Under the pieces are notes generated by a model. That model was not told the DNA's origin, made no database searches, and saw only the letters and a list, made by a program, of their open reading frames with translations. A stretch of DNA of 64,000 bases, taken from the IMG/VR virus record IMGVR_UViG_3300032272_000008, positions 8,928 to 72,927 of that record, one strand, 5' to 3'. Both the position numbers and the translations under genes were made by a program. Shown here in pieces: positions 1 to 38,589 of this stretch (the stretch's first letter is position 1; the number at the start of each line of letters is the position of its first letter). Source of the stretch: a virus. Lineage: Duplodnaviria > Caudoviricetes.

Positions 1-686
1 TCGTTAGGATTAGTGACCTCGAACACATCCTCTGCTCGGCCTTTGCCGATAGCATAGATGTCCTCGTCGAACTCGATAACGAATGGCGTTATCTCATCAA
101 GCCAGGAGGCGTTGATGTAGAGTATGATCGAGAAGACCGGTTTCCACTGCGTCTTCTCGCGGATAAGACCCACCTGCATGTGCGTCTGGTAGTTGTGTTT
201 TTGTTTCTCGTCATTGATGTTGGTGAAAGGGTCGATGCTCTTGACTTCAAGGTTGATACAGTCGCTCTTGATGTCAGGGATGCGGATGATATGCTTCCTG
301 TACTTGACGACGACAGCTGCTCCCCAAGGAAGCCCTCGGATGAGACCATCGGGAGTAGCAGAGGCACGTCCGTCAACAAGCGTTGTCTGGTTTTCTCCTT
401 GATAGAGAAGTTCAAGTCCTTCCGGCAAGTGATTGGACACTGCTGGTACGACGAAGTTATTCTCGATGACATTGCCGCGCTCGGTCGCTCCCCATCGCTG
501 AGTGAAGTCGGCATCTTGTTCAAAGCCAAAGTCCTTACCCCGTTTCTTGAACCACGCTTCACGCAGGCATCCATAGACTTCAGACGCACCGACCGACTCG
601 CCACGATCATACATCCATTCTTTTGGATTAGCTTCTATGTAATCGTCGAAAACCTTCTGCAAGTCAAGTACAAATTCTTCGGCCAT
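1..686 (-). CDS. Cas4/YqaJ-like PD-(D/E)XK exonuclease (runs off the window start)
   Basis: Not in the ORF track because it has no stop in the window. Manual translation from ATG 686: MAEEFVLDLQKVFDDY...VGASEVYGCLREAWF...SATPDG...LEVKSID...YQTHMQ, which carries the nuclease motifs PD, ExK and YxxQ-like. Confidence 0.85.
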   Translation of the reverse strand, partial: MAEEFVLDLQKVFDDYIEANPKEWMYDRGESVGASEVYGCLREAWFKKRGKDFGFEQDADFTQRWGATERGNVIENNFVVPAVSNHLPEGLELLYQGENQTTLVDGRASATPDGLIRGLPWGAAVVVKYRKHIIRIPDIKSDCINLEVKSIDPFTNINDEKQKHNYQTHMQVGLIREKTQWKPVFSIILYINASWLDEITPFVIEFDEDIYAIGKGRAEDVFEVTNPN

Positions 687-692
687 GATAGA

Positions 693-2096
693 TTAAGCTT
701 TCTGTTTTGCCAGTTGTGCGCGGATCTCTGTCATCGACCGGCGTTTCTTTGGTTGTTTGAAGTAGGATTTGCTCAAAACCACGAGTTCATCCTTTGCGCG
801 GGTCACGCCGGTATAGAACCACTCAGGGAAGCCGTCCATGCGACGCGGGTACTCGCCGACCACACACACCTTCGGCCATTCAGAGCCTTGGGATTTGTGT
901 ACGGTGAGAGCGTACGGATACATCACCTTGACGCCCTTGCGCTCAGATTCGATGCGGGAATAAGTATCTTCTCGCTGATTGTCCATAAGCATCACGTTCG
1001 GAGGGATGAGGTCGCTAAGGCACAGGACGCAGCTATACTCCAGACCATTCTCAAGCTCGATTGTAGCCTTCGTCAGGTACGGGTTGGTCCGCTTCATGTA
1101 TTCGTCAGTGGCTTGGATCTCAACGATTTTCAATGGCTGTCCTTTGAAGATGCCGTCGTCGGCTTTGTTCTGGTCGAACAAAAGTTCTTCACCGGGCATT
1201 GGCCGCAGCTGATCACCGTCAGGAAGTGACACGTAGTCAAAGCCTTTTGCAAGCCGTATGGCGAGGTTCAGGTGGTGCCGCGTGACGTTCTTCCACACAA
1301 GCACTTGATGATCCTTGGCGTATTCCAAGACGGTAGCGATGCCTTCATCGTCGCTGTACGTCAAGTCAGCAGAGGCTGCGAAGGTCTCGATGTCCACAGC
1401 GCCGTTGCCGCGTACGTTGTGCGCGACTTTGATAATCCCAGAGCCTTCAGCCTGTCGGTGGATTTCAGTCAGCTTGATGTCAGGATTGGCGAGATCGATT
1501 GCAGGACGATCCTGTACAGGTGGGAGCTGTCCGTAGTCGCCGAAGTAGATCTTCGGAACCTTGATGTTGTTGATGAACGGACGCATCATCGTGTCCTGTC
1601 CAATCATGGAAGCCTCGTCGCAGATCAGGCAATCGAAGAATTCATAGAAGTCTTCCGGGTCGATCGCTTGGAAAGACATCTTGCTCTTGTTGCCATACTT
1701 GTCTGCCAGGTCTTGGAGGTTTTCCCACTCAGCTAGGAGTTCAGCGCGCATGTGAGGACGTGCCATCATGTCAGCTTTGCAGACTTCCATGCGCGCGTTG
1801 ATCTCTTTCAGATGATCGACAGGATTGTCTGTCAAGACTGAATGAAGGGTGCGCGCCTTAAAGTAGTCCTGCTTACCACTGATCACGTGAGCTGCTTTTC
1901 CAGTTGGTGCGCAGACAGCAGGACGGAAGCCTTGTTCTTTCATGCGGCGGACCAGTTCGATCAAGGTCACGGTCTTGCCGGTGCCCGCGAGACCTGACAC
2001 TGTGAAATGGTTTTCTCCGTCGCCTTCTTCAAGGTACTCCAGAGCCATTCCTATCGCTAGGTCTTGTTCTGCGTTGAGTGTGATTGCGTCGGACAT
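693..2096 (-). CDS. RecD/Dda-like SF1B DNA helicase
   Basis: Walker A GLAGTGKT, DEASM, GDYGQLPPV, YALTVHKSQGSEW, YTGVTRAK. Confidence 0.93.
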   Translation of the reverse strand: MSDAITLNAEQDLAIGMALEYLEEGDGENHFTVSGLAGTGKTVTLIELVRRMKEQGFRPAVCAPTGKAAHVISGKQDYFKARTLHSVLTDNPVDHLKEINARMEVCKADMMARPHMRAELLAEWENLQDLADKYGNKSKMSFQAIDPEDFYEFFDCLICDEASMIGQDTMMRPFINNIKVPKIYFGDYGQLPPVQDRPAIDLANPDIKLTEIHRQAEGSGIIKVAHNVRGNGAVDIETFAASADLTYSDDEGIATVLEYAKDHQVLVWKNVTRHHLNLAIRLAKGFDYVSLPDGDQLRPMPGEELLFDQNKADDGIFKGQPLKIVEIQATDEYMKRTNPYLTKATIELENGLEYSCVLCLSDLIPPNVMLMDNQREDTYSRIESERKGVKVMYPYALTVHKSQGSEWPKVCVVGEYPRRMDGFPEWFYTGVTRAKDELVVLSKSYFKQPKKRRSMTEIRAQLAKQKA

Positions 2097-2191
2097 CGTG
2101 GAATTCCCTTTGTATAAACTTTGTATTCGGTGCGGTATGATGGGTTCTACCTGGAACCCATTGCATGGTCACGTACAAACGTGATCATTGG

Positions 2192-4228
2192 TTAATGGCA
2201 CTCAGCCCAGTTGTGGCCGATCTTGAATTCCGCACCGATTGGACAGCTCATTCCAAAACTCGATCCAGCGTCCGCAGCAGCTTCAATACAGAGCGCTGCA
2301 AACTCTTCGGCAACTTCCGAACGAGCCGCTGACTGAATTTCGTCGTGTACAAAGGCAAGCATTGCGAAGTCACCATGCCATCCATGATTGAGTCCTTCAG
2401 CCATTGCATAGTCTTCTGTGAAGACGAGCCAGCGTTTGGCAATAAGAGCACCGGCTCCTTGCAGTCGTGTGTTGAGAGCAGCATGTTCAGATCGGATAGG
2501 GACTTTGCGTCCGTCGAGACCATAGATGAATCCTTTCTGCGCCTGGGCTTGTGTTTCCTTGATCACGCTGTTGAGCGCGGGCAGACCGTCCATCAATTGC
2601 TGACGGAAGCGTCGGCCAGCTTCAGCCCACTGACTTGAGTCCAAGTCCGCTGCAATAGTCGCGCCAATCTTTGGATCACCCGCGCCATACAGCAGCCCGT
2701 ATAGCCCGCGCTTTATCGTACTGCGGCTGTCGATACCAGTTTTCGACATGTTGTACGCGTGGATGTCCTGGCCGCTCGCAATCACTTCGATCATTTCGCC
2801 ACCGTCGTATGGAGACATCGCGTCTGCCAGACAACGGAACTCGATACCTGATAAGTCTGCGCCAACTTGCACCCATGGTTCACCTTCAACGGTTTCAGGA
2901 ACATAAAACAGCGAGCGACATTCGTATCCGTACTTGCCTTTGAGGCCAAGTATTGGATGATCATCTTTGTCCAGTTGCACCGAGGGCACCTGTCCAAGGT
3001 TCGGGCCATGATGGGACGCGCGGCCAGTGACAGTGCCGCCGATGTTGATGTAGCAGTGGACCGCGCCGGTCTCTTTGTCGAATTTTTTGATCCAGGCTTC
3101 AGAACCGTTCGAGATATAGCCCAACAGTTTTTGCAGCTGGAAGATGTCCGCAAGTTCGTTGCAGATAGGATGGCGTTCACCCATGGCGCGCAGAACGGTG
3201 TCGTCAACGGACGGACGCCCTGTCTTGGTCCACTCAGTCGGGTGCCACGCAAAATCGTCTGTGAGGAAGTCTATGACCTGATCTCGCGACGTTGGCGAGA
3301 AGGGTTTCCACTTCATCTTGCAGTAGGCACCACCAGCTGTCCGGTCACCACGCTTGGTAGGATCTTTTGATTTGGCATCCTTCTTCGGGATGGTAATTTC
3401 CGCCCACCACTTGCGTGAGTAATCTTCTCCCCACTCTTCACGTGGCGGCTTGTAAGCCTTCTTCGCCTGGAGACCTTTTGGATCATTCCAGAGGGGACTT
3501 ATCACGTACTTTTTTTCCGCTGCGAACGCGCCGCATCTTTTTTCGACGACGGCTTGGACTTTCACCGCCATTTCGGATTGTAACTTTTGGGCGAGTACCT
3601 CGGCCTCCGCCAGCTTGAAAGGGAAGCCGGTATGCTCCATGTAGGTGACAACTTCTTGTGTCGCCTGTTCCATGTCGATCGTGTCGAGCGAGACGTTATG
3701 CTTCTCGATGAAATTCCAGAGCAGAATGTTGACGTCGATATCGTTCTCACAATAGTCGTCCATCTCCTGATTCCATTCGGACCAAGGGTCGAGACCTTTT
3801 GCCTGCATCTCTTTCGCATAGTCGCCCTTGCGCTTGCCAAGACGATAGCCCCACGAGTCGAGTGAATGCTTGCCGATCATCTTTGCAGGCAGTCGGCCTT
3901 GCTTATTCGCGGCGAAGTCCAGTGGCTTGAAATCGATCGGGAGCAAGCGCACCATGACAAGCGTGTCGCGGATCTCGATGTCTCCTGCATGGAAGTGCGG
4001 GTAGACGATGGCCACGGCCTTGATGTCGAAGCCGATGATGTTGTGGCCAATCCACATGTCAGCTGCTTCCAGCATAGCCACGCCGTCGGCGATGTCGTTG
4101 CCAGCCTTGTTGTTTCGGAAGGCAAACTTCTCAAGCGTGTCCACGTCAATGATGTGCAGGCAATGGATTCGATCCATCGTCGGCAGGAGACCGTTCGTCT
4201 CCACGTCCCATAATAATCTACGTCCCAT
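2192..4228 (-). CDS. polA: T7-like family A DNA polymerase with 3'-5' exonuclease domain
   Basis: ExoI WDVETNGL, motif A GADLSGIEFR, motif B KRGLYGLLYG, HAALNTRLQGAGA, motif C VHDEIQ. Confidence 0.97.
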   Translation of the reverse strand: MGRRLLWDVETNGLLPTMDRIHCLHIIDVDTLEKFAFRNNKAGNDIADGVAMLEAADMWIGHNIIGFDIKAVAIVYPHFHAGDIEIRDTLVMVRLLPIDFKPLDFAANKQGRLPAKMIGKHSLDSWGYRLGKRKGDYAKEMQAKGLDPWSEWNQEMDDYCENDIDVNILLWNFIEKHNVSLDTIDMEQATQEVVTYMEHTGFPFKLAEAEVLAQKLQSEMAVKVQAVVEKRCGAFAAEKKYVISPLWNDPKGLQAKKAYKPPREEWGEDYSRKWWAEITIPKKDAKSKDPTKRGDRTAGGAYCKMKWKPFSPTSRDQVIDFLTDDFAWHPTEWTKTGRPSVDDTVLRAMGERHPICNELADIFQLQKLLGYISNGSEAWIKKFDKETGAVHCYINIGGTVTGRASHHGPNLGQVPSVQLDKDDHPILGLKGKYGYECRSLFYVPETVEGEPWVQVGADLSGIEFRCLADAMSPYDGGEMIEVIASGQDIHAYNMSKTGIDSRSTIKRGLYGLLYGAGDPKIGATIAADLDSSQWAEAGRRFRQQLMDGLPALNSVIKETQAQAQKGFIYGLDGRKVPIRSEHAALNTRLQGAGALIAKRWLVFTEDYAMAEGLNHGWHGDFAMLAFVHDEIQSAARSEVAEEFAALCIEAAADAGSSFGMSCPIGAEFKIGHNWAECH

Positions 4229-4229
4229 G

Positions 4230-4475
4230 TCAGGTTCCTCGATACTTAGGATGCGTAATTGCAGCCTCTATCATTTCCATTGCAAGCAGGCGGTTCGTAT
4301 GTTGTGACCTTGTAGTGTTCACACACGCCTCTATGTCACCCGGAAGGTATGTGACCTTGATACCAGACGGACCACTGCCGACGTGCTGTCCGCCACGGTT
4401 GAAGCCGAAGGGCCAGGACTCAATCTTCAAGTGTTTTGGATCTATCAATGTCAGGTTCCTCATATTGGGCGTCAC
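4230..4475 (-). CDS. Minimal class I release factor (RF-1/GGQ) domain protein; true start may be TTG 4448
   Basis: IDPKHLKIESW...RGGQHVG...SGIKVTYLPGDI...RSQHTNRLLAMEMI aligns by eye to release-factor domain 3 (GGQHVN...SAVRITHLPTGI...RSQHKNK.KAL). Confidence 0.85.
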   Translation of the reverse strand: MTPNMRNLTLIDPKHLKIESWPFGFNRGGQHVGSGPSGIKVTYLPGDIEACVNTTRSQHTNRLLAMEMIEAAITHPKYRGT

Positions 4476-4581
4476 ACTTTGGGCAACAGTTGTTATCGTT
4501 CAACTCACCGTCACCCCGGCAGTGGTCGCATCCAAAGTCGTCGTCTTCAATTGATACACCCCAGGCTTCGATGTCAGGCAC
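4420..4581 (-). CDS. Small acidic Zn-ribbon protein (53 aa)
   Basis: AGGAG RBS then GTG: MPDIEAWGVSIEDDDFGCDHCRGDGELNDNNCCPKCDAQYEEPDIDRSKTLED; CxxC...CxxC. Fills the gap between two genes; below the ORF-track cutoff. Confidence 0.65.
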   Translation of the reverse strand: MPDIEAWGVSIEDDDFGCDHCRGDGELNDNNCCPKCDAQYEEPDIDRSKTLED

Positions 4582-4590
4582 TTCTGTCTC

Positions 4591-6207
4591 CTATCGTTGA
4601 GCGCACCACTTCTGGCCACGCATTGTTACAATCGTTCGCTTGCCGTTCGAGTATGTTACAATGTGAGAATGGTTCCAGCCGGTCAGTCCGCCTCGATTAT
4701 ATCCTTGATCGCGGGTACAGGAATGCCCCGCAAGATAGATGCCTTCATATATGCCTGCACCATGCTTGTCAGCGATGTTGGCTTTAGGACCCATCTTGGA
4801 AAATGATTTGATGTGCCCCTTTGCCCCGTTGGCACCTTTGTCACCGTGTAGCGCGTTCTCGATGTTGCCGCAAATAACAAATGATCCGGTGTTCGGAATG
4901 AACTGCACATTGTCGAGGTCATAGTCCTGCTTTCTGATGCCCCACTCAGCGGCGAGGAAGTTGTCTTCACGTTTCTTGATTGCTTTGTAGTAGGCAGTCT
5001 GTGCTTCAAGAAAGAACAATGCGTTGGCTGGATCGAAGCGGGTGTCGGCGGTCTTGAGCCACTTCTCGAATGCACGGTCATGATTACTGTCGATGACGAT
5101 GGACTCGCAGAACTCACGCTGAGTGCCTTCTAAGAAGCGTGCTGCATTGATGAACTCACCTTCGACGTTTGACTTGCCGTTGATGTGCATCTTGTACCAG
5201 TGATGCGGGTCCTTGACGTTGTGATGGTTGCGTCGGCGGAAGTCAATCACATCATGGAAGAATTGGTAAACCGGTTTCAACGTATCGAGCATATTATCTT
5301 CAACCATGACGATGCTGCTGAACTCAGAGTCGTATCCCCACGATCCGATCGCCGTATCGTAGTCCAATGTTTCCGCGTGGATGTCGCCCCAGGTAATCGC
5401 CTCAACAATTCCGCTACCCTCTGTAATGGCTCCGTCTGCCACATAGTTGTTCAGATCACAGAACGCACCATCTTTGTCAGCCGCGAGGTGGCGACAGAAG
5501 AAGTCACCTTCACTATCGATCTCAACGAGCACTGCGCCGATGACGTGATGGAATTCGGCTTTGATGCCAGCCTTCTGTTGAAGGTAGTTCGGCAACGTGA
5601 CGGCACCGGTTGTCATGATGATCTTTGGGTCGTCATGGAGCCGCGTGGGGACGCTTTCGAGAACCACCTTCGGGTGAGGAAGGATGGCCCACTTTTCACG
5701 CGTGTACGTCTGAAAACCAGATAGGGGATCGGTTGCAGTCGGTAGCGTGTTCATCTCACCGCAGAAGACCAACCGGCCATCGACATCGAACCGTTCATTG
5801 GAGATGTAGTCGGCGATGTCTGGGTGATAGATCGAGACGATGTTCTTGTCTTCGCGCGCCGTCGCCTGCATGTTGTAGGTGAAGCCGCTGATGTGGATGT
5901 TAGCATTCAAGTGGGCTGCGTATGCTTTAAGGTTCTCCATGAAGCCTTCGTGCACTGCGGTGTGGGCCTGGGCCGATGAGAAGATCCAGGTTTTGACAGC
6001 TGCGCCCCGCCGAGGCTTCTTTAGAGCCACCGGCTTGTTCTGGTTTTTCGTGGTGTAGGAGGCGGTAATTTTACGGTGTCGGCGTTGGAAAGTGACGCGG
6101 GCTATACCTAATCCCGTGGCGGCTTTGTTGAGACTGCCGTACGTCTTGACAGCTTCGAGGACTTCAGCGTCTGACATTTTCGCCAGAACAGGATGTGGAG
6201 CGGCCAT
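4591..6207 (-). CDS. N-terminal HTH plus calcineurin-like metallophosphoesterase, resembling the T5 A1 family
   Basis: Metal-binding motifs WGDIH, FFHD, DSNHD, HGD, GHS; HTH-like YGSLNKAATGLGIARVTF. The A1 similarity is from memory. Confidence 0.7.
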   Translation of the reverse strand: MAAPHPVLAKMSDAEVLEAVKTYGSLNKAATGLGIARVTFQRRHRKITASYTTKNQNKPVALKKPRRGAAVKTWIFSSAQAHTAVHEGFMENLKAYAAHLNANIHISGFTYNMQATAREDKNIVSIYHPDIADYISNERFDVDGRLVFCGEMNTLPTATDPLSGFQTYTREKWAILPHPKVVLESVPTRLHDDPKIIMTTGAVTLPNYLQQKAGIKAEFHHVIGAVLVEIDSEGDFFCRHLAADKDGAFCDLNNYVADGAITEGSGIVEAITWGDIHAETLDYDTAIGSWGYDSEFSSIVMVEDNMLDTLKPVYQFFHDVIDFRRRNHHNVKDPHHWYKMHINGKSNVEGEFINAARFLEGTQREFCESIVIDSNHDRAFEKWLKTADTRFDPANALFFLEAQTAYYKAIKKREDNFLAAEWGIRKQDYDLDNVQFIPNTGSFVICGNIENALHGDKGANGAKGHIKSFSKMGPKANIADKHGAGIYEGIYLAGHSCTRDQGYNRGGLTGWNHSHIVTYSNGKRTIVTMRGQKWCAQR

Positions 6208-6267
6208 GTATTTTGTCCTTCTTATTTCAATGCGTTGGGTATATCACGTCATAGGGCCACCTGCAAG

Positions 6268-7893
6268 CTACAGGTATTTCTGGCCCATCATACGGTCAAT
6301 GTTCTGCTGTCTCACGTCGAGTATTTCCACAAGTTCGGCCTCGATAGAATCCTCAATGACAAGGCGGTATACTGCGATTGGATTGAGCTTTGTAGGTAGC
6401 CACGGTCTCTCTTCGGCCTGATCGTATTCAGAGGGCACTGCTCTAGCAAACTCTGCAATGACAACGACGTCGGATGCGGACAGTTCGATGGCTTCGGACA
6501 TAGACTGGAGGTTTCCAACAATGATTCGACATGTTGGATCAGTCTGGAAACGTACTCGCTCTGCTTCGCGCTGAGAGGTTGACATGCCTCCGTATACTCG
6601 TGCGATAGTCTCAGGCGCAAATGCATCGTAGAACTTCTCAAGGGGTTCTCGGTGGTGATAGAAGACGATGACCTTGGGTTCAGTTTCAAGAATTTCGTTG
6701 ATGACATCGACGACCATATCGACTTTTCTGAGAGCCAATTCACGACGGGCAACTGGCCCTTTCCCTTCGACCATTCCGACATCATCAAGCGTAACGTCTC
6801 CGAGCTTATCTTCGCCACCGGCATTTAACATCTCTCTTAGTTTGTCCAAATTCTGTTGGAAAGCCGAGCGCTCTGTAGCGAGCAGGCGGGATAAACCAGT
6901 CTTTGGCAACAAAATAGTCTGACGTAGTGGAGGCAATTCTTCTAACACGTCGCCCTTCTCGCGGCGTATCATAAAGGTTTTCCTTAGATAGAATTGCAAG
7001 TCCTCTTCGTTTGAAGACCCGCTTGTATCGAGTCCAAACGCGCCCTTGAACGCGTTGCAATACTTGTAGATGTAGCTTTTCCAGTTGGACCCTAAACCGC
7101 TTTTGTCGAGCTTTTCGATCATAGGCCACAGCTGGATTGGTCGTGTAAAGATCGGGGTTCCAGTGAGACATATGAAGTGTTCCTTCGCTTTGATCTTCTG
7201 GTCGCGTTTCTTGCCCTTGACCGGCTTGCCAAAGGTTATCTTTGTGCGCTTGGATTTTGGATTGCCAAGCTTATGTGTCTCATCGCTGATCACGACATCC
7301 CAATCGATCGACGTGAGATAGTCGAAGTGCTTTTCGAGTAGCTCGAAATTGATGACCAGGAAGTCCGTCTCAGGATTGTTCGGTCCTTCGCAGTATCCCA
7401 CACTCATGTCATGAACAAGCCACTCCTTCGCTTCACGGACCCAGCCCACCTTCGCGTTTGCGGGAACAACCGCCAGAACGCGTCGTGGTCGGTCGGTTTC
7501 GGGGAGTAGATTGATGACGCCGAGAGTTTGGATGGTTTTGCCAAGGCGTGGGACATCAGCGTTGAGTGAGCCCCAGCGCGACGCCATGAAGGCGATTCCT
7601 GCTTTTTGATAGTCACGGTATTCCCTTCCTGGTGGTGCGGGCACTTGGATGTCCGAAGTTACCGCAAGGCTCTCAGCGACAGCTTCTCGCTTGATGTTGA
7701 TGAATTTAGAGACAACTATAGCTGTCCCGTCGTCGCAGAACTCCAAAAAAGGAACCACGCGTTCAATCTTACTTGTCCTCGCTTCGTCTCTGATCTTCAA
7801 ATGAAGCCAGCCTTTGCTTTTCAGTTCAAGCAACTTCTCGGGCGATCCGGTCGCAAAGAACCGGCCACCTTTATGTGTGATCTGGAGGGTCAT
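6268..7893 (-). CDS. SNF2-family (SF2) helicase
   Basis: DVPRLGKT, VISDETH, LTGTPI, MIRREK, YDQAEER motifs. Confidence 0.92.
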   Translation of the reverse strand: MTLQITHKGGRFFATGSPEKLLELKSKGWLHLKIRDEARTSKIERVVPFLEFCDDGTAIVVSKFINIKREAVAESLAVTSDIQVPAPPGREYRDYQKAGIAFMASRWGSLNADVPRLGKTIQTLGVINLLPETDRPRRVLAVVPANAKVGWVREAKEWLVHDMSVGYCEGPNNPETDFLVINFELLEKHFDYLTSIDWDVVISDETHKLGNPKSKRTKITFGKPVKGKKRDQKIKAKEHFICLTGTPIFTRPIQLWPMIEKLDKSGLGSNWKSYIYKYCNAFKGAFGLDTSGSSNEEDLQFYLRKTFMIRREKGDVLEELPPLRQTILLPKTGLSRLLATERSAFQQNLDKLREMLNAGGEDKLGDVTLDDVGMVEGKGPVARRELALRKVDMVVDVINEILETEPKVIVFYHHREPLEKFYDAFAPETIARVYGGMSTSQREAERVRFQTDPTCRIIVGNLQSMSEAIELSASDVVVIAEFARAVPSEYDQAEERPWLPTKLNPIAVYRLVIEDSIEAELVEILDVRQQNIDRMMGQKYL

Positions 7894-7942
7894 GTTACCT
7901 TGAATGCACCTAAAGGCACTTTATGTTACCTTGAGGTAACAT
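7892..7942. promoter_or_regulatory. Operator-like inverted repeat plus half-site upstream of the SNF2 gene
   Basis: ATGTTACCT-TG-AGGTAACAT (7923-7942); ATGTTACCTTGA repeated at 7892-7903. Confidence 0.5.
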
Positions 7943-7944
7943 TT

Positions 7945-8229
7945 TCAGTTGGCTGGGAGGATGTAATAGCGCCCTTGGATGCGCTCGACATTGTAGCGCT
8001 TGTAGAACACGCCCACTTTACAAGTCACACGAATGCGTCCCATCCCCGCTGATTCGAGTTTGTGGATGCTGTCACAGCGGTAGCCGTCAGCTACGATTTC
8101 TTTTCTGAGACTTGCGTAGGCTTTGGCAGGGTATGCGAATGCGATCCCCACGATGCAGACGACGCAAACGATGGCCAGAACGACAGCGTAGAAGGGAGGT
8201 TTCGGCCTGACATAATATTTCGATTCCAT
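7945..8229 (-). CDS. Small secreted/membrane protein
   Basis: Hydrophobic N-terminal helix ending AYPAKA, then a two-Cys small domain. Confidence 0.7.
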   Translation of the reverse strand: MESKYYVRPKPPFYAVVLAIVCVVCIVGIAFAYPAKAYASLRKEIVADGYRCDSIHKLESAGMGRIRVTCKVGVFYKRYNVERIQGRYYILPAN

Positions 8230-8250
8230 GGAGGTATTCCTTTCGATAGT

Positions 8251-8523
8251 CTATTCAGATGGACGGGAGATAGCAACCATGAGCTGCGCGTACATACGAG
8301 CCATGCTTGCAGTGAGGGGGTTGTGCGCAGAGTCCACGATCGTTTTCCACGTGGTTTCAGTTACCAGCTCTTTACCGGACTCGATGTGTCGCAGCGTTTG
8401 TTTCACGCCACCGACTTCAATGGTCTGCGTGAGAGCGAAATAGGGGTACAGCAAACGCCGACGCTGGGCAAACAATGCTGCGTTTTGGAGCTGATCGTGT
8501 AGGTCTGTTCGGCGGTCGTCCAT
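8251..8523 (-). CDS. Hypothetical protein
   Basis: Co-oriented ORF in a tightly packed operon. Confidence 0.55.
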   Translation of the reverse strand: MDDRRTDLHDQLQNAALFAQRRRLLYPYFALTQTIEVGGVKQTLRHIESGKELVTETTWKTIVDSAHNPLTASMARMYAQLMVAISRPSE

Positions 8524-8644
8524 GACTTAATACCTTTCTTTGGATTTGTGACACGGAATACCCCGCATCGAGCAACAGTCTTTCACCTTCACTGTATTTG
8601 ATCAAGCCTTGTTTGATGTTTCGGATGATCTGTTCTTCTGACAC
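8417..8644 (-). CDS. Hypothetical protein
   Basis: Start overlaps the upstream stop; long 3' overlap with the next ORF lowers confidence. Confidence 0.45.
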   Translation of the reverse strand: MSEEQIIRNIKQGLIKYSEGERLLLDAGYSVSQIQRKVLSHGRPPNRPTRSAPKRSIVCPASAFAVPLFRSHADH

Positions 8645-8880
8645 TACGGTTGGCTCACTGTCAGATGGTGGGGCACGACGGACTTGCCTGCAAAGGTCAG
8701 GATGATCACCTCACCACGCTTCAGTCTATCCAGTTCGAGTGGGTTCGGGCGATAGGCGAACTCGACGCCATCTCCACCAACATAGCCGGAAATTGTTTTG
8801 CACGGACCAAACTTGGCTTCGTCCCAGTTTCCTGGAGGACCAAATTCTACGTTGTCTTGTTCACGTCGGATGGGTTTCAT
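8644..8880 (-). CDS. Hypothetical phage protein
   Basis: AGGAG RBS before MKPIRREQDNVEFGPPGNWDE. Confidence 0.7.
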   Translation of the reverse strand: MKPIRREQDNVEFGPPGNWDEAKFGPCKTISGYVGGDGVEFAYRPNPLELDRLKRGEVIILTFAGKSVVPHHLTVSQP

Positions 8881-8987
8881 GGGAAACTCCTGTGTCTTGA
8901 GTAAAGGTCGGGAGAGGCAGGTATAGGCGACCAAACCCTCTGCACTCTCCCTTGCGCGAGGGAAAGGAATTAAACCTCGCGCTGTTC

Positions 8988-10505
8988 TTAGATGCCCCAG
9001 GTATCTATGTTGGGATCATCGTGATCGTAATCTGCCGCAGGGTTCTCACGCTTCTGGCGAAGCTGGATGCGGAATTCTTCGACGGCTCGCTCGTCTTCTT
9101 CATGACCAAGGCGTTGCAGTTCCTCTTGATACCGTTCTTCTGCGATGCGCTTGGCTTCTGCTTCGATGGCGCGCTGTTTGTATTCACGCGCTTCAGCTTG
9201 TCGAGCGTCTTCGATTGCAAGATTTTCAGCAATCTCCTTGGCCGCTAATGCGTCAGCTTCATCTCGGCGCTCCACCTCTTCTCGGACTTCAGCTGCAACG
9301 AATTCCGCTTCAATCCTATCTGCGGCTGCCTGCGCGTCTTCCGTGTCGGCGTCGTAGCAGGTACATTCGTCGATATACTCGCCGCAGTCGGAGCAGTCAT
9401 CTTCGTAATCTTGGTAATCTTCGTAATCTTTCTCGTCCAATTGCTCTGCGGAGTTGGCGGGAGTTTCAGTTGCCAATTCAGTTTCGAAGCCTCCGCCAAG
9501 GTCATAGAGAGGTTTCATTCCCTCCGTTGGCAGAGGACTTCTTGAGACAGGATCATCAAGAATCATCATTGGTTCTGGGACAGGACCGTAGTCGTCATTG
9601 AACTCGTCGTCCATGACGATCGTGTGTGTGGTCTCAGGTGCCTGGAAAGCAGAGATGCCCACAGTGCCGCCAGTGATCAATGGAGTGCCCTTGAAGAAGT
9701 CTTTGCACTCTTCCTGCGGAACTTCACCGATGACTTTGTATTCGCACGCACGGCCTTTCTGATAGTTGTAGTCGCGAGGAATGGCACACACATTCATTGG
9801 GTCGATTTCGACCACAACAACTTTGTTCTCTCCGCCACTGCCATAGTGGCTCAGGTATTCAAAGCCACAGAAATGAAGGCCGTTGCTGCACTCTCTGTCA
9901 CGGTCACTGTCAACCGCTGCCCGTTCCATCTTGACGACGAGACCAGGGGCGTTGCTGATCTTGGTGCCGCCAGGACCCTGGTGGATCGACGTGTAGTCAC
10001 CAGCCACTTTCTTGAACGCAATCAGGTTGCCTTCGGAAGTGATTGGAAGCTGTGCGCCTTCCATCCATTCGAACAGTTCTGCGCCGATGTCTGTCTTTGG
10101 GTTCAGCATGATCTTGTTCATGAACTTGGCAAGCGGAGCCACGTCGAGACCTTGGTGAAGGTGCTGCATGATGCGCTCTGCGACGAGGTTGTGGACAGGC
10201 TGGTCGGCATACAGGACACCTTTGTCTGTGACCTTGACGAGACCTTCGGTCAGGCGAGTGATGTACGCGGGGATGTCCAGCAAGTCACGCAGCTTGGAGA
10301 CAGCTTTCTCAATGCGTTGATCTCTGGTGCCATACAGTTGGCGAGCGACGAAGCCCAGCTCTGGTGCAGAGTGCATTTTGTCAATGTCCGTGAGGACTTT
10401 CCTCACTCGGAGGAAATTGATATGTGAAGAAGGAATTATCCGCATGCGGCCTTCGAAGAAGATGCTGATGGATTTGGGAGTGATCGATGCTGGAACTCGG
10501 GTCAT
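8988..10505 (-). CDS. rIIB: rIIB-like protein with long acidic C-terminal extension
   Basis: LPITSEGNLIAFKKV, CSNGLHFC, EIDPMNVCAIPRDYNYQKGRACEYKV; adjacent to rIIA. Confidence 0.9.
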   Translation of the reverse strand: MTRVPASITPKSISIFFEGRMRIIPSSHINFLRVRKVLTDIDKMHSAPELGFVARQLYGTRDQRIEKAVSKLRDLLDIPAYITRLTEGLVKVTDKGVLYADQPVHNLVAERIMQHLHQGLDVAPLAKFMNKIMLNPKTDIGAELFEWMEGAQLPITSEGNLIAFKKVAGDYTSIHQGPGGTKISNAPGLVVKMERAAVDSDRDRECSNGLHFCGFEYLSHYGSGGENKVVVVEIDPMNVCAIPRDYNYQKGRACEYKVIGEVPQEECKDFFKGTPLITGGTVGISAFQAPETTHTIVMDDEFNDDYGPVPEPMMILDDPVSRSPLPTEGMKPLYDLGGGFETELATETPANSAEQLDEKDYEDYQDYEDDCSDCGEYIDECTCYDADTEDAQAAADRIEAEFVAAEVREEVERRDEADALAAKEIAENLAIEDARQAEAREYKQRAIEAEAKRIAEERYQEELQRLGHEEDERAVEEFRIQLRQKRENPAADYDHDDPNIDTWGI

Positions 10506-10591
10506 GATGGTCCTTTCATTGGGTTGTTCTATTCTCTGACACTCTTGTACGAGCGTACCGGGCCGGTGTCTACTTTTAAATAGACGCTTGG

Positions 10592-12823
10592 TTAACTGGC
10601 CCGATCAACTGTCTCGATATACTCAGCCATATGAGACAGCTTATCTCCCTCGACCTTCTTCACGCCACCATAATACTTCTTCGTCAGATCCATGTACTGA
10701 AGCATCGGATAGCGGCTTACCACTTCTTCCCATGCTTTCTCTTTCGTTTCTTCGCTGATAATCTTTGCAAAGCACGCCCGTTCGGCTTCATTCATCAAAA
10801 CAGGAACGTTCAGCTGTTCTGCCAATCGTCTCAGATTATTGACATTGCCTTCACGAGCAAGTTTTCGCTCGATGATTTTCAACTTGATAGTCGCCTCACG
10901 AAGCGCACCACGATGTGTCGGAAGGACACCTTTCTGGATCAGTGCACCACATAGTTCATGTATGTGCGTTTCGCCAGTAAATTCTCCCTTCTCATTCAAC
11001 AGCATGATCAGTTCCGGTGTCATCCGTGACTCGACAACTTCCTGCAAGATAGGACGCAGTCTCTGCCATTTACCACCGGCTCGCTCAATTTTCTTACGAT
11101 GCGTCGCAGGGATCTGAACAATCTTCGTGTCCGCATCGATCTTTCCTACTGCAAGCAGGAAGGCGTGTGCCTGGGCAAAATCATAATCGGACCACATGTA
11201 GTTGAAGTCATTCATTCGGCCACGTGTCGTCTCAATGTAGAGCACGTTGTCATCGTCTGACGAGATGTCAGAAGAAATCCAGTTCATGCTGCTCGGCCCC
11301 GTTATGTGGGCTTCCTTGCATTTCACCGTGGCACGTGTGTACTGTGCCCGCGCTTCCTTCGGAGCTTCTGGCAGCTCAGACACGATGTGCAGCGCACCTT
11401 TATCAGGGCGACCAGCCATGATCATGAAACGTGCTGCTTGACTTGTGTTTGCGTCACACTTCACCCAGACGCAACGCTTGGTGCCGAAGTTGTTTCCGAC
11501 TACGTGGTTGTGACGGAAGTGGTGTGCGATGTTCAAGCCGCGACCACGTGTGTTTTTGCCGTCACCGACGATGTCCAAGTAGATGATGTCTTTGCCAGGA
11601 CGTAGAAAAGCAGTACCGTTATGCGCCCACTTGCCGTCCCAGGCATTCTTGTGCCGTGCCGTCAGACCATTAATCGACTGGCGATCAGTAACTTGCATCA
11701 CACGGCGACCCAACATCTCGCGTTCTTTTACCCTGAAGTGTATTTCGTCCGTCAATTTCCGGCCTTGGAACTTCAATGTGCTGCCCAAGATTCGCGAGAC
11801 GGTGTCGCTGATTGACTTGTCCGCCATGATCTCTTGGTATTTGGCCGTAGCCTCCCACCGTGTTTTACAACTGTTGAACTCCGCTACGAACTGTTCTGTG
11901 ACCTCTTTATATGCGGAGGCAGCGCGCTTAACAATGTTGGCCTGCGTCTCGGGGTCGTATGAGAGGCCTTCACGTGAGGCTGCGATGTCCACTTCACCGA
12001 TAGGGAAGTCGATGATTGTGTTCGCTTGCAGGATGATCTTTGTTGGCTCATCGCAATCTTTGATCGAGTTCGGATCAATTGGGTAGAGGACGCAGCCTTG
12101 GCGAGCGAACGCTTGTGCGCTTGCATAGCGGTCTGGGTTGACGTAGAAGCTCCAGCCATCACCCGTATAGAGTGTTTCGATGTTGCGCTTCTCTTCAAAA
12201 ATTTCTCGTTCACGATCGGGGACGTCGATGTTTGGTTGCACTGGGAAGCCACGAGCAACCTCGCCAGTTTTCTGGGCGAACTCTCTGACGTCCATTGTGT
12301 CAACCGGGAAGGAGACCTCGACGCCTTGCGGTTCCGTAGACGGTGAGCGATCCATGAGGTCGATACATGGGCAGCGCTCGCGGTCGAGGTAGGCGGAGTA
12401 GACGCGGACTTCGCCGTCCAACCAAACAGTGACCGTGAAAGCGTCCGTATACGCATAAGGACTTTTCGAACCAAGGCCCAACATGCCGACTGCATCATTT
12501 GTTTGTTCCTTTGTGCTTTCGAACACAGTCGAGTACAGCCCCATGACTGTCTCATGTGTCATGGAAATGCCGTAGTCCCGGACTGAGAAGTGTGGTTCGA
12601 ATAGGGATGGAAGGTGGACATCAAACGGGACATCGCTCTTGCCTGCTTCAGCGTGGCTGTCGAAAGCGTTCGACCAAAGCTCACGGATGGCGGCGCGCGG
12701 CTTGTCTGAGTACAGGCCGTCGATGAGGATTTTGAAGGCTTTGCCGCTGGCAGCAATTTTGAATTTAGTTGTTTCAGCGGTGCCGATGGTCTGAACGTCA
12801 CGTTCTTCGATATTCATACGCAT
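10592..12823 (-). CDS. rIIA: rIIA-like protein (GHKL ATPase N-terminus); start set at ATG 12823 after AGGA RBS
   Basis: LYSDKPRAAIRELWSNAFDSH, VRDYGISM, GMLGLGSKSPYAY. Confidence 0.9.
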   Translation of the reverse strand: MRMNIEERDVQTIGTAETTKFKIAASGKAFKILIDGLYSDKPRAAIRELWSNAFDSHAEAGKSDVPFDVHLPSLFEPHFSVRDYGISMTHETVMGLYSTVFESTKEQTNDAVGMLGLGSKSPYAYTDAFTVTVWLDGEVRVYSAYLDRERCPCIDLMDRSPSTEPQGVEVSFPVDTMDVREFAQKTGEVARGFPVQPNIDVPDREREIFEEKRNIETLYTGDGWSFYVNPDRYASAQAFARQGCVLYPIDPNSIKDCDEPTKIILQANTIIDFPIGEVDIAASREGLSYDPETQANIVKRAASAYKEVTEQFVAEFNSCKTRWEATAKYQEIMADKSISDTVSRILGSTLKFQGRKLTDEIHFRVKEREMLGRRVMQVTDRQSINGLTARHKNAWDGKWAHNGTAFLRPGKDIIYLDIVGDGKNTRGRGLNIAHHFRHNHVVGNNFGTKRCVWVKCDANTSQAARFMIMAGRPDKGALHIVSELPEAPKEARAQYTRATVKCKEAHITGPSSMNWISSDISSDDDNVLYIETTRGRMNDFNYMWSDYDFAQAHAFLLAVGKIDADTKIVQIPATHRKKIERAGGKWQRLRPILQEVVESRMTPELIMLLNEKGEFTGETHIHELCGALIQKGVLPTHRGALREATIKLKIIERKLAREGNVNNLRRLAEQLNVPVLMNEAERACFAKIISEETKEKAWEEVVSRYPMLQYMDLTKKYYGGVKKVEGDKLSHMAEYIETVDRAS

Positions 12824-12973
12824 TCTGTTGTTCCTTTTCGGTTGGTCATTCGCGTTTCGTTGAAATGAATATGTCAGAACCTTTCCCCTGACGCAATTCC
12901 TTGATATTGACATAGTTAATAGGACGTGACATTGTAGGCACAACCCTTCCAAAACCTTATAAGGTGTACTTTT
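12824..12973. promoter_or_regulatory. Divergent promoter region
   Basis: AT-rich gap between divergent genes, with TTGACA near 12907. Confidence 0.5.
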
Positions 12974-13951
12974 ATGACAACTCTCGCCCCACATCTCGTT
13001 GTAACGGAACTTGCCGACAGCACGGACTGCGACCGGGTTGTAGATCCTGGAAAATATTCTGTTGTCACGCCTGGAAATGGGCCTAGTGGTGACAATTTCA
13101 TCATAGAAGTGCTGAAGACAACCATTTCCGGCATTAGTGTTGTGATGCAGCGCGCCTTCGCACAGAGCACCAACGGCGTCTATGTACGCTTCTTGAATGC
13201 TGGTGCGTGGACCACCTGGACACAAGCGGGCGGCGCAGCCGCTGCTTCAAGTGTTTTCACCTTCGATCCCGACCTGCTAACCAGATCTATGGCTGCTCCG
13301 AGTTGGTCATCAGCCACAGCGGCTACTACACACCTGGGAGCTATTTTAGATAACTCCAACTTTACAGGTCTTGAAGACGACGCAATTCCTTATCGTGCGC
13401 AACCGAATATTAGACTGCAACCTACAGCAGGTAATTTCAACGGCGGCAACATCTACACCAGAGATATGGGATTGTTTCGAGCGCAGGGTTTCCGTACCCG
13501 TCAGCGATTTGCTGTAGGTGCGACCCTTCAACCGAATCATCGTATTTTTGTTGGACTATCTTCTGGCGGCATTGTTCTGAATAACCCGACAACAAATGAC
13601 AATTTGATCGGATTGTATTTGGACGCTAATGCTGATCCTGATTGGCAAATTCTATCCAACGCTACAGGCACATCCCAAACACCAGTAAACGGTGTAACAG
13701 GATTTACAGCGGTTGCAGGACAGTTCTTAGAGGTTTGTTTCTATTCTGAGGCTGGTGGCGCAGGGATTGAGTATAAGGTTACCAATCTTGCGGACTCAGC
13801 GGAATACTCTGGAGAAATAACTTCGGAACTACCGACTGCAACGCCAGCAAGCGGGGAGTCGCTCAGTTGCACCACTGAGACCAACAACGGCGACCACGCC
13901 TCAAACGTAGCAGAAGCTTTCTTCCACTATTCGATGGCGCAGGCACTTTAA
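12974..13951 (+). CDS. Tail-fibre-related protein with N-terminal knob-like domain
   Basis: GKY...NGP...IIEV...VMQRAF...VYVRFL...WTTWTQ matches the pyocin/tail-fibre knob pattern; beta-rich C-terminus. Confidence 0.55.
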   Translation: MTTLAPHLVVTELADSTDCDRVVDPGKYSVVTPGNGPSGDNFIIEVLKTTISGISVVMQRAFAQSTNGVYVRFLNAGAWTTWTQAGGAAAASSVFTFDPDLLTRSMAAPSWSSATAATTHLGAILDNSNFTGLEDDAIPYRAQPNIRLQPTAGNFNGGNIYTRDMGLFRAQGFRTRQRFAVGATLQPNHRIFVGLSSGGIVLNNPTTNDNLIGLYLDANADPDWQILSNATGTSQTPVNGVTGFTAVAGQFLEVCFYSEAGGAGIEYKVTNLADSAEYSGEITSELPTATPASGESLSCTTETNNGDHASNVAEAFFHYSMAQAL

Positions 13952-13966
13952 TCAAAACAGGATAAG

Positions 13967-14572
13967 GTGATGAAGCCTTCCAACATCATGCCGGAGGGGG
14001 CGAATATGGACCACCCTCCGCGTGAGGACGGGTGGTATATCTATCACAACCCGGTCAATGGTCCAAATGGATCATCGACTGGGTTCTTCTGTCTCTACAG
14101 CTATGCTGCAAAGATGAACGGCGCGCATCGCGCAGTGCAGTTCATGATTGATTTAGGGACTGGCTGTCTGTTTGTTCGGTCAGGGGCGACAGGGTCTTCT
14201 GCATGGACGATGTGGCGGGAAGTTAGCGACCAAACACACATGCAAGTTGTAGAGGACCAGATTGCGTCCATTAACGATTTCATCGACACACACCTTGCCA
14301 ACAACCCAACATCCGTCTATCGATGGCAGTATCAGCGTGCGGTGTGGCAGGTCATGCCGAGAAACGAGTACGAGCATGGTACGTGGCAAAAGCACATTGA
14401 TGATGCACAGATGACCGCTGGACGAAAGCGGCGTATGCGCTTCTATATCCTTGAATCCAACGTAATCCGACGATCGCACGGCCTGACCAAGCGTTTTGAA
14501 AACGAGGTCCTTGGTGCGACGCAAGACCAGAAAGACCACATATGGAAAGTCGCTCCAACGATACGCCTTTAA
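13967..14572 (+). CDS. Knob-like domain fused to a tail-fibre-chaperone-like C-terminus
   Basis: GWY...NGP...AVQF...LFVRSG...WTMWREV; C-terminal IRRSH...LGATQDQKDHIWKVA. Confidence 0.5.
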   Translation: MMKPSNIMPEGANMDHPPREDGWYIYHNPVNGPNGSSTGFFCLYSYAAKMNGAHRAVQFMIDLGTGCLFVRSGATGSSAWTMWREVSDQTHMQVVEDQIASINDFIDTHLANNPTSVYRWQYQRAVWQVMPRNEYEHGTWQKHIDDAQMTAGRKRRMRFYILESNVIRRSHGLTKRFENEVLGATQDQKDHIWKVAPTIRL

Positions 14573-16045: not shown

Positions 16046-16277
16046 CGTCAAGTGGAACTGGACCAAAATAACCAAAGCTACACTCCCGCCCGACGATCGT
16101 TACTTCATGACATGGTCGGAAGAAGACATACCCCCCGTGGCGGTGTGTCGCACCTACAAATTCGACGGGGGTGATCGCTATATCCTCTATGCCGATGAAC
16201 TTTTGTGCGATGTCGCACCAGAAGGTCCTGTTGGGGCAACCCATTGGGCAGAGTACCCGGAAGGACCTACAGATTGA
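16035..16277 (+). CDS. Hypothetical protein (DUF551-like pattern)
   Basis: W...LPP...ATHWAEYPEGP pattern; start overlaps the upstream stop. Confidence 0.55.
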   Translation: MADNVKWNWTKITKATLPPDDRYFMTWSEEDIPPVAVCRTYKFDGGDRYILYADELLCDVAPEGPVGATHWAEYPEGPTD

Positions 16278-38536: not shown

Positions 38537-38589
38537 CCATGAGTGACATAGCCACTTGATTTTCATTTTGGCTGTGTTACAAAGATCTC

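What the first reader, a model, noticed from the sequence alone, without database searches (positions are those of the whole stretch)
4230..4475. Stand-alone release-factor catalytic (GGQ) domain coupled to DNA polymerase
Seen: only RF domain 3, with an intact GGQ and RSQH-N helix, lacking the codon-reading domains of RF1/RF2 and the basic C-terminal tail of ArfB. Its stop lies 1 nt from the polA start. Established: ArfB needs its tail to sense an empty mRNA channel. Inference: it is either a codon-independent peptidyl-tRNA hydrolase needing a partner, a decoy for the PrmC methylase or RF-binding factors, or a translation inhibitor. Short RF-like phage genes may already be annotated elsewhere, but the mechanism is not evident.
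Basis: partly seen in the sequence, partly recalled or inferred. Interest (0 to 1): 0.75.

Follow-up and report, generated by a model that had tools for sequence, protein, structure and literature searches.

The report
Phage stand-alone release-factor GGQ mini-protein
A large phage of alphaproteobacteria carries a 72-residue gene that is only the peptide-releasing (GGQ) domain of a bacterial release factor; it belongs to a widespread, already annotated but never tested phage family, and how such a bare domain could work on a ribosome is still unknown.

Summary
The minus-strand ORF at 4230-4475 encodes release-factor domain 3 with GGQ and RSQHTNR intact. It has no codon-reading domains and no ArfB-like tail. 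Its TGA lies 1 nt before the polA ATG. The real start is most likely TTG at 4448 (72 aa), not GTG at 4475.

The gene is under strong purifying selection (dN/dS 0.07). Its model (pLDDT 91) matches RF1 216-285 and RF2 233-302 at Z 8.0-8.6.

It is not unique. It matches PHROG 20323, and cultured phages carry annotated copies. A search of 1.84 billion proteins gave 2461 hits; 107 of the best 150 are 100 aa or shorter. This scan has noted such mini-RFs on other DNA in at least 51 genomes.

The link to polA is local. It is shared only with a 90%-identical marine relative. Other relatives sit in structural, early or prophage-end regions, and no partner gene is conserved. The 53-aa zinc-ribbon ORF upstream is an orphan 132-nt insertion.

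My best reading, at about 45%, is a minimal codon- and mRNA-independent peptidyl-tRNA hydrolase acting on stalled ribosomal complexes. This is untested, and ArfB's bare GGQ domain is inactive, which argues against it. Verdict: new member of a known, uncharacterised kind.

The parts
4230..4448 (-). mini-RF coding sequence: 72 aa, TTG start, TGA stop at 4230-4232. It is release-factor domain 3 only: strand 7-12, GGQ loop 13-28, strands 29-34 and 39-43, helix 49-64.
4386..4394 (-). GGQ codons (GGC GGA CAG), residues 19-21 of the 72-aa protein
   Evidence: In the family, G20 is kept in 104 of 105, G19 in 94 and Q21 in 91, with Met in 10.
4290..4310 (-). RSQHTNR, the start of the helix equivalent to the first half of RF helix alpha-7
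   Evidence: In the family, R47 is kept in 91 of 105, S48 in 97, Q49 in 95, N52 in 90 and R/K53 in 96.
4448..4461 (-). GAGGAACCTGACAT, copy A: Shine-Dalgarno GAGGAA, a 7-nt spacer and the first base of the mini-RF TTG start
   Evidence: This exact 14-mer occurs only twice in 64 kb.
4227..4240 (-). GAGGAACCTGACAT, copy B: the last codons of mini-RF (R70 G71 T72 and the stop) double as the polA Shine-Dalgarno; it ends in the first two bases of the polA ATG
   Evidence: L008 keeps the same arrangement with GGAGCCTGACA at both places.
2192..4228 (-). Family A DNA polymerase (678 aa), the next gene downstream, starting 1 nt after the mini-RF stop
   Evidence: PF00476 at 1.4e-39 and phrog_17 at 5.6e-114. 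It is 40-42% identical to the PolA of phiCbK-like Caulobacter and Brevundimonas phages.
4420..4581 (-). Orphan 53-aa CxxCxGxG zinc-ribbon ORF with its own AGGAG Shine-Dalgarno and a GTG start. It overlaps the mini-RF start by 29 nt in another frame. It lies in a 132-nt insertion (4456-4587) that L008 lacks. It is context, not a conserved partner.
4591..6207 (-). Upstream gene: T5 A1-like 'DNA transfer protein' (538 aa). In L008 it directly precedes mini-RF.
   Evidence: phrog_1745 at 9.3e-170

Best explanation
The gene encodes a minimal, self-standing copy of the catalytic domain 3 of a bacterial class I release factor. The phage makes it together with its replication genes.

Proposed mechanism (inferred, not shown). 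The domain enters the A-site side of the peptidyl-transferase centre of the large subunit, as domain 3 of RF1 or RF2 does. It presents the Gly-Gly-Gln loop to the ester bond of P-site peptidyl-tRNA, so the nascent chain is hydrolysed. It has no part that reads a stop codon or probes the mRNA channel, so release would not depend on codon or mRNA. Any selectivity would have to come from how long the A site stays empty, that is from stalled 70S ribosomes, or from open access on split 50S-peptidyl-tRNA complexes. The benefit to the phage would be to free ribosomes trapped during infection, for example after mRNA decay, tRNA depletion or attack on the translation apparatus.

The gene behaves as an autonomous cargo gene. 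It sits in a variable slot upstream of polA, flanked by a duplicated ribosome-binding-site 14-mer. Its closeness to polA reflects operon packing, not a shared function.
For: Shown:
- It is RF domain 3 by sequence and by fold. It is closer to RF2 and RF1 (84 and 78 bits) than to PrfH (64), C12orf65 (40) or ArfB (31).
- Across 105 family members the most conserved residues are those that work at the peptidyl-transferase centre in release factors: G20 in 104 of 105, G19 in 94, Q21 in 91, V23 in 88, G24 in 92, and R47/S48/Q49/N52/R-K53 in 90-97.
- Where Q is replaced it is mostly by Met while both Gly are kept. This fits catalysis through the Gln backbone amide, as described for RF2 (PMC6742477).
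- Purifying selection is strong: omega 0.07-0.19 in four comparisons.
- The family forms one side of a branch against 80 cellular RF1/RF2 domain-3 segments (SH-like support 95).
- It was not found as a roughly 70-aa ORF in 201 alphaproteobacterial genomes. That points to a phage-specific use.
- No neighbouring gene is conserved across six different contexts, so the protein probably acts without a phage-encoded partner.

Context only: this phage also encodes a permuted tmRNA.
Against: - The GGQ domain of E. coli YaeJ/ArfB without its C-terminal extension neither bound ribosomes nor hydrolysed peptidyl-tRNA (PMC3950681).
- In RF1 and RF2 the switch loop and H69 direct domain 3 into the peptidyl-transferase centre (PMC6742477). 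The mini-RF has no equivalent.
- The family is not basic (median pI 6.8, net charge about 0; this protein +2), so there is no obvious extra grip on rRNA.
- About 18% of members lack an intact GGQ, and earlier notes of this scan describe conserved phage relatives with GGQ replaced. The fold therefore also has a use that does not need the canonical motif.
- This protein and L008 differ from the family at three nearly invariant positions: H34 to Y, T/S37 to G, G38 to D.
- No experiment on any member was found.
- A tmRNA does not generally accompany the gene: none of 4 other mini-RF phages hit RF00023.
Confidence: 0.45

Rival explanations
1. It binds the peptidyl-transferase-centre A site and modulates translation without needing catalysis. 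It would occupy the place of RF1/RF2 domain 3 or of the aminoacyl end of A-site tRNA. That could tune termination or read-through, or pause host translation.
For: - Roughly one member in five lacks the canonical GGQ yet remains a conserved ORF.
- Earlier scan notes report conserved phage relatives with GGQ replaced by other loops.
- The helix-start motif RSQxxN(R/K) is at least as conserved as Q21.
Against: - In this protein and its closest relatives GGQ is intact, and both glycines are nearly invariant in the family. A pure blocker would not need that.
- A bare domain with weak affinity would compete poorly with full-length factors.
Confidence: 0.2
2. It is a host shut-off factor or toxin. 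A free GGQ domain would release nascent chains prematurely from any elongating ribosome whose A site is briefly empty, damping host protein synthesis. In prophages it could act as an abortive or exclusion function.
For: - It has no selectivity module.
- The 74%-identical homolog P0002 sits at the cargo end of a temperate phage. It lies next to the tRNA-type attachment remnant and integrase and directly follows a small HTH gene, a layout that recalls toxin-antitoxin or moron genes.
Against: - Phage translation would be hit equally.
- Here the gene is embedded in the replication operon, and in L097 in a late structural operon, so it is expressed while the phage needs translation.
- No immunity gene is conserved next to it.
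Confidence: 0.12
3. It is a decoy for proteins that recognise RF domain 3. The main candidate is the GGQ glutamine methyltransferase PrmC. Sequestering it would lower methylation or availability of host RF1 and RF2.
For: The model aligns to the RF1 chain of the RF1-PrmC complex 2B3T over RF1 216-284 (Z 7.6), so the part of RF1 that carries the methylated Gln is present.
Against: - An enzyme turns its substrate over and is not easily sequestered.
- The benefit to the phage is unclear.
- Strong conservation of the RSQxxN(R/K) helix start, which is a ribosome-facing element in my own knowledge of RF structures, is not explained.
- Nothing was tested here.
Confidence: 0.05
4. It is a hydrolase that depends on a partner to bring it to the ribosome. 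The partner would be either the adjacent 53-aa zinc-ribbon protein or a host factor, by analogy with mtRF-R and MTRES1 on split mitochondrial large subunits.
For: - The zinc-ribbon ORF overlaps the mini-RF start.
- A few family members carry Cys-rich N- or C-terminal extensions (P0075, P0145, P0039).
- Z is 7.1 to mtRF-R in 7A5H.
Against: - The zinc-ribbon ORF is an orphan: only itself among 5.8 billion proteins.
- It is absent from the 90%-identical relative L008.
- No conserved neighbour exists in other contexts.
- A host partner cannot be tested with these tools.
Confidence: 0.1

Closest known systems
[quoted passage not shown]
   Same: It has the same fold and the same motifs: GGQHV, a TH-type strand and the RSQHxN(K/R) helix start. 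It is about 32-34% identical to E. coli RF1 217-278 with no gaps. Z is 8.0-8.6 over RF1 216-285 and RF2 233-302.
   Different: It lacks domain 1, the codon-reading domains 2 and 4, the switch loop and the distal half of helix alpha-7. It therefore cannot read a stop codon or be steered by the decoding centre. The sequence after GGQ reads HVG, not HVN. This protein has Y, G and D at three positions that are H, T/S and G in nearly all relatives.
Phage stand-alone RF-1 domain proteins (PHROG 20323, e.g. Agrobacterium phage OLIVR5 gp157; longer form PHROG 35727, e.g. Pseudomonas phage PHB09 gp177)
   Same: These are also domain-3-only proteins of about 65-75 aa in tailed phages. The match is E 2.8e-7 over profile positions 2-62 of 73. 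They are annotated as 'RF-1 domain peptide chain release factor'. This is the family the gene belongs to.
   Different: Identity to cultured-phage members is only about 30-35%. The genomic context differs. PHB09-type members carry about 90 extra C-terminal residues. I found no functional study of any member.
ArfB (YaeJ) and mitochondrial ICT1
   Same: They are codon-independent GGQ proteins without decoding domains. They are the textbook example of a small release factor that works without a stop codon.
   Different: ArfB has a linker and a basic C-terminal helix that binds the empty mRNA channel and is required for binding and activity (PMC3950681). It also has an extra helix inside the GGQ domain. 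The mini-RF has neither. The family profile scores only 31 bits against ArfB, as two broken segments, and Z is 6.0.
PrfH (with RtcB2) and mitochondrial mtRF-R (C12orf65, with MTRES1)
   Same: Both are GGQ-domain rescue factors for special ribosomal states: damaged 70S ribosomes and split large subunits with peptidyl-tRNA. Z is 8.1 (PrfH) and 7.1-7.2 (mtRF-R); profile scores are 64 and 40 bits.
   Different: Both are 2-3 times longer, with extra domains or extensions, and mtRF-R has a dedicated partner. The mini-RF has no extension and no conserved partner gene.

Membership tests
Pfam RF-1 (PF00472), the bacterial release-factor peptidyl-hydrolase domain | Significant match to the family HMM | tested here: met
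   E 1.9e-8 and 34.7 bits, 0.3 bit under the curated cut-off of 35. The three closest homologs carry a precomputed PF00472 hit. The family profile hits RF2 at 3.6e-23.
Pfam RF-1 (PF00472), the bacterial release-factor peptidyl-hydrolase domain | Gly-Gly-Gln motif in the loop between the first and second strand | tested here: met
   GGQ at residues 19-21, window 4386-4394. It is intact in 86 of 105 relatives.
Pfam RF-1 (PF00472), the bacterial release-factor peptidyl-hydrolase domain | Three-stranded sheet plus helix fold of RF domain 3 | tested here: met
   AlphaFold model at pLDDT 91. Z 8.0-8.6, rmsd 2.0-3.5 A over 58-68 residues against RF1 and RF2 domain 3.
Class I release factors RF1 / RF2 | [quoted passage not shown] | tested here: not met
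   The protein has 72 aa and all of it aligns to RF1 216-285. The prfA and prfB models score 37-38 bits against cut-offs of 370-423.
ArfB / YaeJ / ICT1 | Linker plus basic C-terminal helix that occupies the empty mRNA channel | tested here: not met
   The protein ends 8 residues after the domain-3 helix. Net charge is +2, and the family median is about 0.
ArfB / YaeJ / ICT1 | ArfB-type GGQ domain with an inserted helix | tested here: not met
   The family profile matches ArfB only in two broken segments at 31 bits, against 78-84 bits for RF1 and RF2. Z is 6.0 against 8.0-8.6.
PrfH | A protein of about 200 aa with an N-terminal domain that recognises damaged ribosomes, encoded next to RtcB | tested here: not met
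   The length is 72 aa. TIGR03072 scores 29 bits against a cut-off of 166.65. The neighbouring genes are an A1-like protein, a zinc-ribbon ORF and PolA. RtcB elsewhere in the record was not searched.
Phage stand-alone RF-1 domain proteins (PHROG 20323) | Match to the PHROG profile over most of its length, and a protein of about 65-75 aa that is domain 3 only | tested here: met
   E 2.8e-7 over profile positions 2-62 of 73. The protein has 72 aa. 107 of the 150 best representatives are 100 aa or shorter.
Phage stand-alone RF-1 domain proteins (PHROG 20323) | Peptidyl-tRNA hydrolase or release activity, as the family name implies | not testable with these tools
   I found no experimental report for any member.

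The most novel reading that the evidence does not exclude
The mini-RF is a new type of ribosome-rescue factor. It would release nascent chains from ribosomes stalled with an empty A site on intact mRNA, or from split 50S-peptidyl-tRNA complexes. tmRNA, ArfA and ArfB all need an empty mRNA channel and cannot resolve such stalls directly. Phages would use it to keep ribosomes available when host defences or the infection itself deplete or cut tRNAs and mRNAs. In this phage it would work beside the phage's own tmRNA.
Probability: 0.2. Interest if true: 0.8.

Novelty: new member of a known kind. Interest (0 to 1): 0.45.

Why it matters
Every characterised GGQ factor (RF1, RF2, ArfB, ICT1, PrfH, mtRF-R) joins the catalytic domain to a module that tells it which ribosome to act on. 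ArfB's bare domain is inactive. Yet a 70-residue bare GGQ domain has been kept under strong selection in many unrelated phages. Either a bare domain can work on some ribosomal state, or phages use it in a way not yet described.

Cultured phages carry members of the family (for example Agrobacterium phage OLIVR5 and the Pseudomonas Otagovirus phages), so this can be tested at the bench. This particular gene adds a clean example. It has an intact motif, a measured selection signal, a defined start, a phage tmRNA in the same genome, and evidence that the gene moves as a small cassette.

Tried and rejected
1. Programmed +1 frameshift fusions. The polA frame is +1 relative to mini-RF across ACC-TGA-C-ATG. 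This recalls the UGA-C site with an upstream Shine-Dalgarno in prfB. The mini-RF frame is likewise +1 relative to the zinc-ribbon ORF. I rejected both: each gene has its own Shine-Dalgarno and start, ACC is not a slippery codon for +1 re-pairing (my own reasoning), and L008 lacks the zinc-ribbon ORF altogether.
2. The zinc-ribbon ORF as a conserved partner. It is an orphan and is absent from L008. No complex prediction was run, because I do not claim binding.
3. A general 'tmRNA plus mini-RF' toolkit. None of 4 other mini-RF phage records hit RF00023. phiCbK, a tmRNA-carrying phage group by my own recollection, gave only sub-threshold hits and has no RF-1 domain. The alpha-type tmRNA model was not run on OLIVR5.
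4. SmpB was not found in the 72.9-kb record, which is a fragment.
5. Megablast of 2000-8000 against cultured phages gave no match.
6. The search for related loci with the 105-sequence alignment failed because no block was conserved enough. With the 4-sequence alignment it gave 2 viral loci. In bacterial genomes it returned only ordinary RF1 and RF2 genes.
7. The promoter and terminator scan of 1-14000 gave counts no higher than shuffles.
8. Sequencing runs: only one DNA run, probably the source sediment metagenome, holds the stretch. No RNA holder is listed.
9. Third RF-like matches in 5 of 201 alphaproteobacterial genomes lie in open frames of 116-302 aa, not about 70 aa. I did not characterise them further. 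The tally includes one unpublished genome (G043), and nothing rests on it.

Full report
**What is there**

On the minus strand, 4230-4475 is an open frame of 81 codons. It matches the Pfam RF-1 domain at E 1.9e-8 and 34.7 bits, just under the curated 35. It also matches the prfA and prfB models over their domain-3 part and PHROG 20323, 'RF-1 domain peptide chain release factor'.

GGQ is encoded at 4386-4394 and RSQHTNR at 4290-4310. A profile of the four closest sequences aligns without gaps to E. coli RF1 217-278.

With a 105-sequence alignment AlphaFold gives a confident model (pLDDT 91, pTM 0.76). It has strand 7-12, a GGQ loop at 13-28, strands 29-34 and 39-43, and a helix at 49-64. The model aligns to RF1 216-285 and RF2 233-302 at Z 8.0-8.6. 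PrfH scores 8.1, mtRF-R 7.1 and the YaeJ GGQ domain 6.0.

**Gene boundaries**

The three closest homologs are 70-72 aa and begin at the position of Leu10 of the long ORF. L008 is a TARA Oceans contig about 90% identical in DNA. It has ATG at exactly that position, only 10 nt after the stop of the upstream gene.

In the window a GAGGAA lies 7 nt before this TTG (4448). I therefore take the coding sequence as 4230-4448, giving 72 aa. The stop, TGA at 4230-4232, is followed by one base and then the polA ATG at 4226-4228.

**Is it a functional gene?**

Against L008 there are 25 synonymous and 8 non-synonymous differences (dS 0.81, dN 0.056, ratio 0.07). Ratios against two more distant homologs are 0.09 and 0.19. 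The gene is under strong purifying selection.

**The genome**

The window is part of a 72.9-kb IMG/VR virus record that CheckV rates 37% complete.

The gene lies in a minus-strand replication block. In order, this block holds rIIA, rIIB, an SNF2 helicase, a T5-A1-like 'DNA transfer protein', a 53-aa zinc-ribbon ORF, the mini-RF, a family A DNA polymerase, a Dda-like helicase and a RecE-like exonuclease. Further along are an HslV-like peptidase, terminase, portal and major head protein.

There is also a permuted alphaproteobacterial tmRNA at 38560-39031 with the tag ANDNEALLLAA. No SmpB was found in the record. PolA is closest, at 40-42% identity, to the phiCbK-like giant phages of Caulobacter and Brevundimonas. 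The host is therefore probably an alphaproteobacterium.

**The link with polA is local**

L008 has A1-like, then mini-RF, then PolA, with the same 1-nt junction. Other relatives sit elsewhere:
- The 74%-identical P0002 lies at the cargo end of a temperate phage. It follows a small HTH gene and lies next to a tRNA-like attachment remnant and an integrase.
- P0003 precedes a small ORF and a methyltransferase.
- P0009 is packed between virion structural genes.
- L010 has it among small early-type ORFs.
- OLIVR5 gp157 lies beside nucleotide-metabolism genes, and PHB09 gp177 in an early cluster.
- phiCbK has a hypothetical gene and a cytosine methyltransferase between the A1-like gene and PolA, and no RF-1 domain anywhere.

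The space upstream of polA is therefore a variable cargo slot. In the window the exact 14-mer GAGGAACCTGACAT occurs only twice in 64 kb. One copy is at the mini-RF start and the other at its end, where it serves as the polA ribosome-binding site. A third CCTGACAT sits at the start of the zinc-ribbon ORF. L008 has its own matched pair. This looks like the footprint of small cassettes inserted at a duplicated ribosome-binding site.

The zinc-ribbon ORF lies in a 132-nt insertion (4456-4587) that L008 lacks. It has no homolog among 5.8 billion proteins.

**The family**

A profile search of 1.84 billion representative proteins gave 2461 hits at E <= 0.001 and 66 at E <= 1e-10. Of the best 150, 107 are 100 aa or shorter.

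In a 105-member alignment the best conserved positions are G20 (104), G19 (94), Q21 (91, otherwise mostly Met), V23, G24, H34 (101), P36, R47, S48, Q49, N52 and R/K53. GGQ is intact in 86 of 105. The family is not basic: median pI is 6.8.

The family profile is closer to RF2 and RF1 (84 and 78 bits) than to PrfH (64), C12orf65 (40), ArfB (31) or ICT1 (16). On a quick tree the 105 mini-proteins form one side of a branch against 80 cellular RF1/RF2 domain-3 segments (SH-like support 95). That tree rests on only 71 columns and a biased sample, so it is indicative only.

In 201 alphaproteobacterial genomes nearly all have exactly two matches, RF1 and RF2. The five third matches lie in frames of 116-302 aa, not about 70 aa. 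BFVD holds many phage look-alikes from Pseudomonas, Acinetobacter, Aeromonas, Mycobacterium and Cellulophaga phages.

Earlier notes of this scan list such phage mini-RFs, with and without GGQ, in at least 51 other genomes. I did not find any paper that tests one.

**How it may work**

Shown: the fold, the motifs, the constraint, the lack of any accessory module and the lack of a conserved partner gene.

Established elsewhere: in RF2 the GGQ loop sits next to A76 of P-site tRNA, is held by A2602, and the Gln backbone amide catalyses hydrolysis. The switch loop and H69 steer domain 3 into the centre (PMC6742477). ArfB without its C-terminal extension neither binds ribosomes nor hydrolyses (PMC3950681).

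Inferred: the residues kept best in the family are the catalytic loop and the helix start, which faces the ribosome in release factors. The glycines are kept better than the glutamine. The most economical reading is therefore a catalytic factor that docks in the peptidyl-transferase centre as domain 3 does.

Without a decoding or mRNA-channel module it would be blind to codon and mRNA. Its targets would be defined by access alone: long-lived empty A sites or split 50S-peptidyl-tRNA complexes. I give this reading about 45%. The ArfB result is the main argument against it.

The rivals are:
- a non-catalytic A-site binder (20%);
- a premature-release shut-off factor (12%);
- a partner-dependent hydrolase (10%);
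- a PrmC or RF-binding decoy (5%).

The remainder is something else.

**Peculiarity of this copy**

This protein and L008 have Tyr, Gly and Asp where nearly all relatives have His (101 of 105), Thr/Ser (98) and Gly (87), in the second strand and the following turn. I have no explanation for this.

**Verdict**

It is a new member of a known, annotated but functionally untested phage family. The polymerase coupling and the zinc-ribbon neighbour are local accidents of a cargo slot. The finding is of moderate interest. The open question is how a bare GGQ domain can act, and it can be tested in cultured phages.

Noticed in passing
window 4420-4587: A 132-nt insertion (4456-4587) relative to the 90%-identical marine contig L008 creates an orphan 53-aa CxxCxGxG zinc-ribbon ORF with its own AGGAG Shine-Dalgarno and a GTG start. 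Its last 10 codons or so are read from the 5' end of the mini-RF gene in another frame, a 29-nt overlap. It has no homolog among 5.8 billion proteins.
   Followed up: yes
window 4227-4240, 4448-4461, 4571-4578: The exact 14-mer GAGGAACCTGACAT occurs only twice in 64 kb and brackets the mini-RF gene. Its core CCTGACAT recurs at the zinc-ribbon ORF start (11 copies in the window against 2.5 expected). L008 has its own matched pair, GGAGCCTGACA. This may be a footprint of cassette insertion at a duplicated ribosome-binding site, or a shared translational operator.
   Followed up: partly
window 38560-39031 (+): A phage-encoded permuted (two-piece, alphaproteobacterial type) tmRNA with the tag ANDNEALLLAA (ARAGORN; Rfam RF04321 at 75 bits, RF01849 at 71 bits). 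No SmpB was found in the 72.9-kb record.
   Followed up: partly
window 16205-16801 (+): An HslV-family peptidase homolog (phrog_1040, E 3.3e-12) with no obvious HslU next to it. Together with the tmRNA it may bear on degradation of tagged proteins.
   Followed up: no
window 4339-4349 (residues 34, 37, 38 of the mini-RF): This protein and L008 have Tyr34, Gly37 and Asp38 where the family has His (101 of 105), Thr/Ser (98) and Gly (87). This is a lineage-specific change in the 'TH-P-T-G' strand and turn that release factors also conserve.
   Followed up: no
L002 7801-8400: The 74%-identical homolog sits at the end of a temperate phage. It directly follows a 62-aa HTH gene and is followed by a tRNA 3'-end-like attachment remnant and an integrase. 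This is a moron-like or toxin-antitoxin-like position.
   Followed up: partly
proteins P0075, P0145, P0039: A few family members are fused to Cys-rich, zinc-ribbon-like extensions at the N- or C-terminus. P0075 also lacks GGQ.
   Followed up: no
contig of L010 (handle G001), 59932-60150 and 67639-67893: One viral contig carries two separate RF-1-domain mini-ORFs.
   Followed up: no
L099 (phiCbK 96933-98835): In phiCbK the slot between the A1-like 'DNA transfer protein' and PolA holds a hypothetical gene and a cytosine methyltransferase, not a mini-RF. The slot is variable across this phage group.
   Followed up: yes
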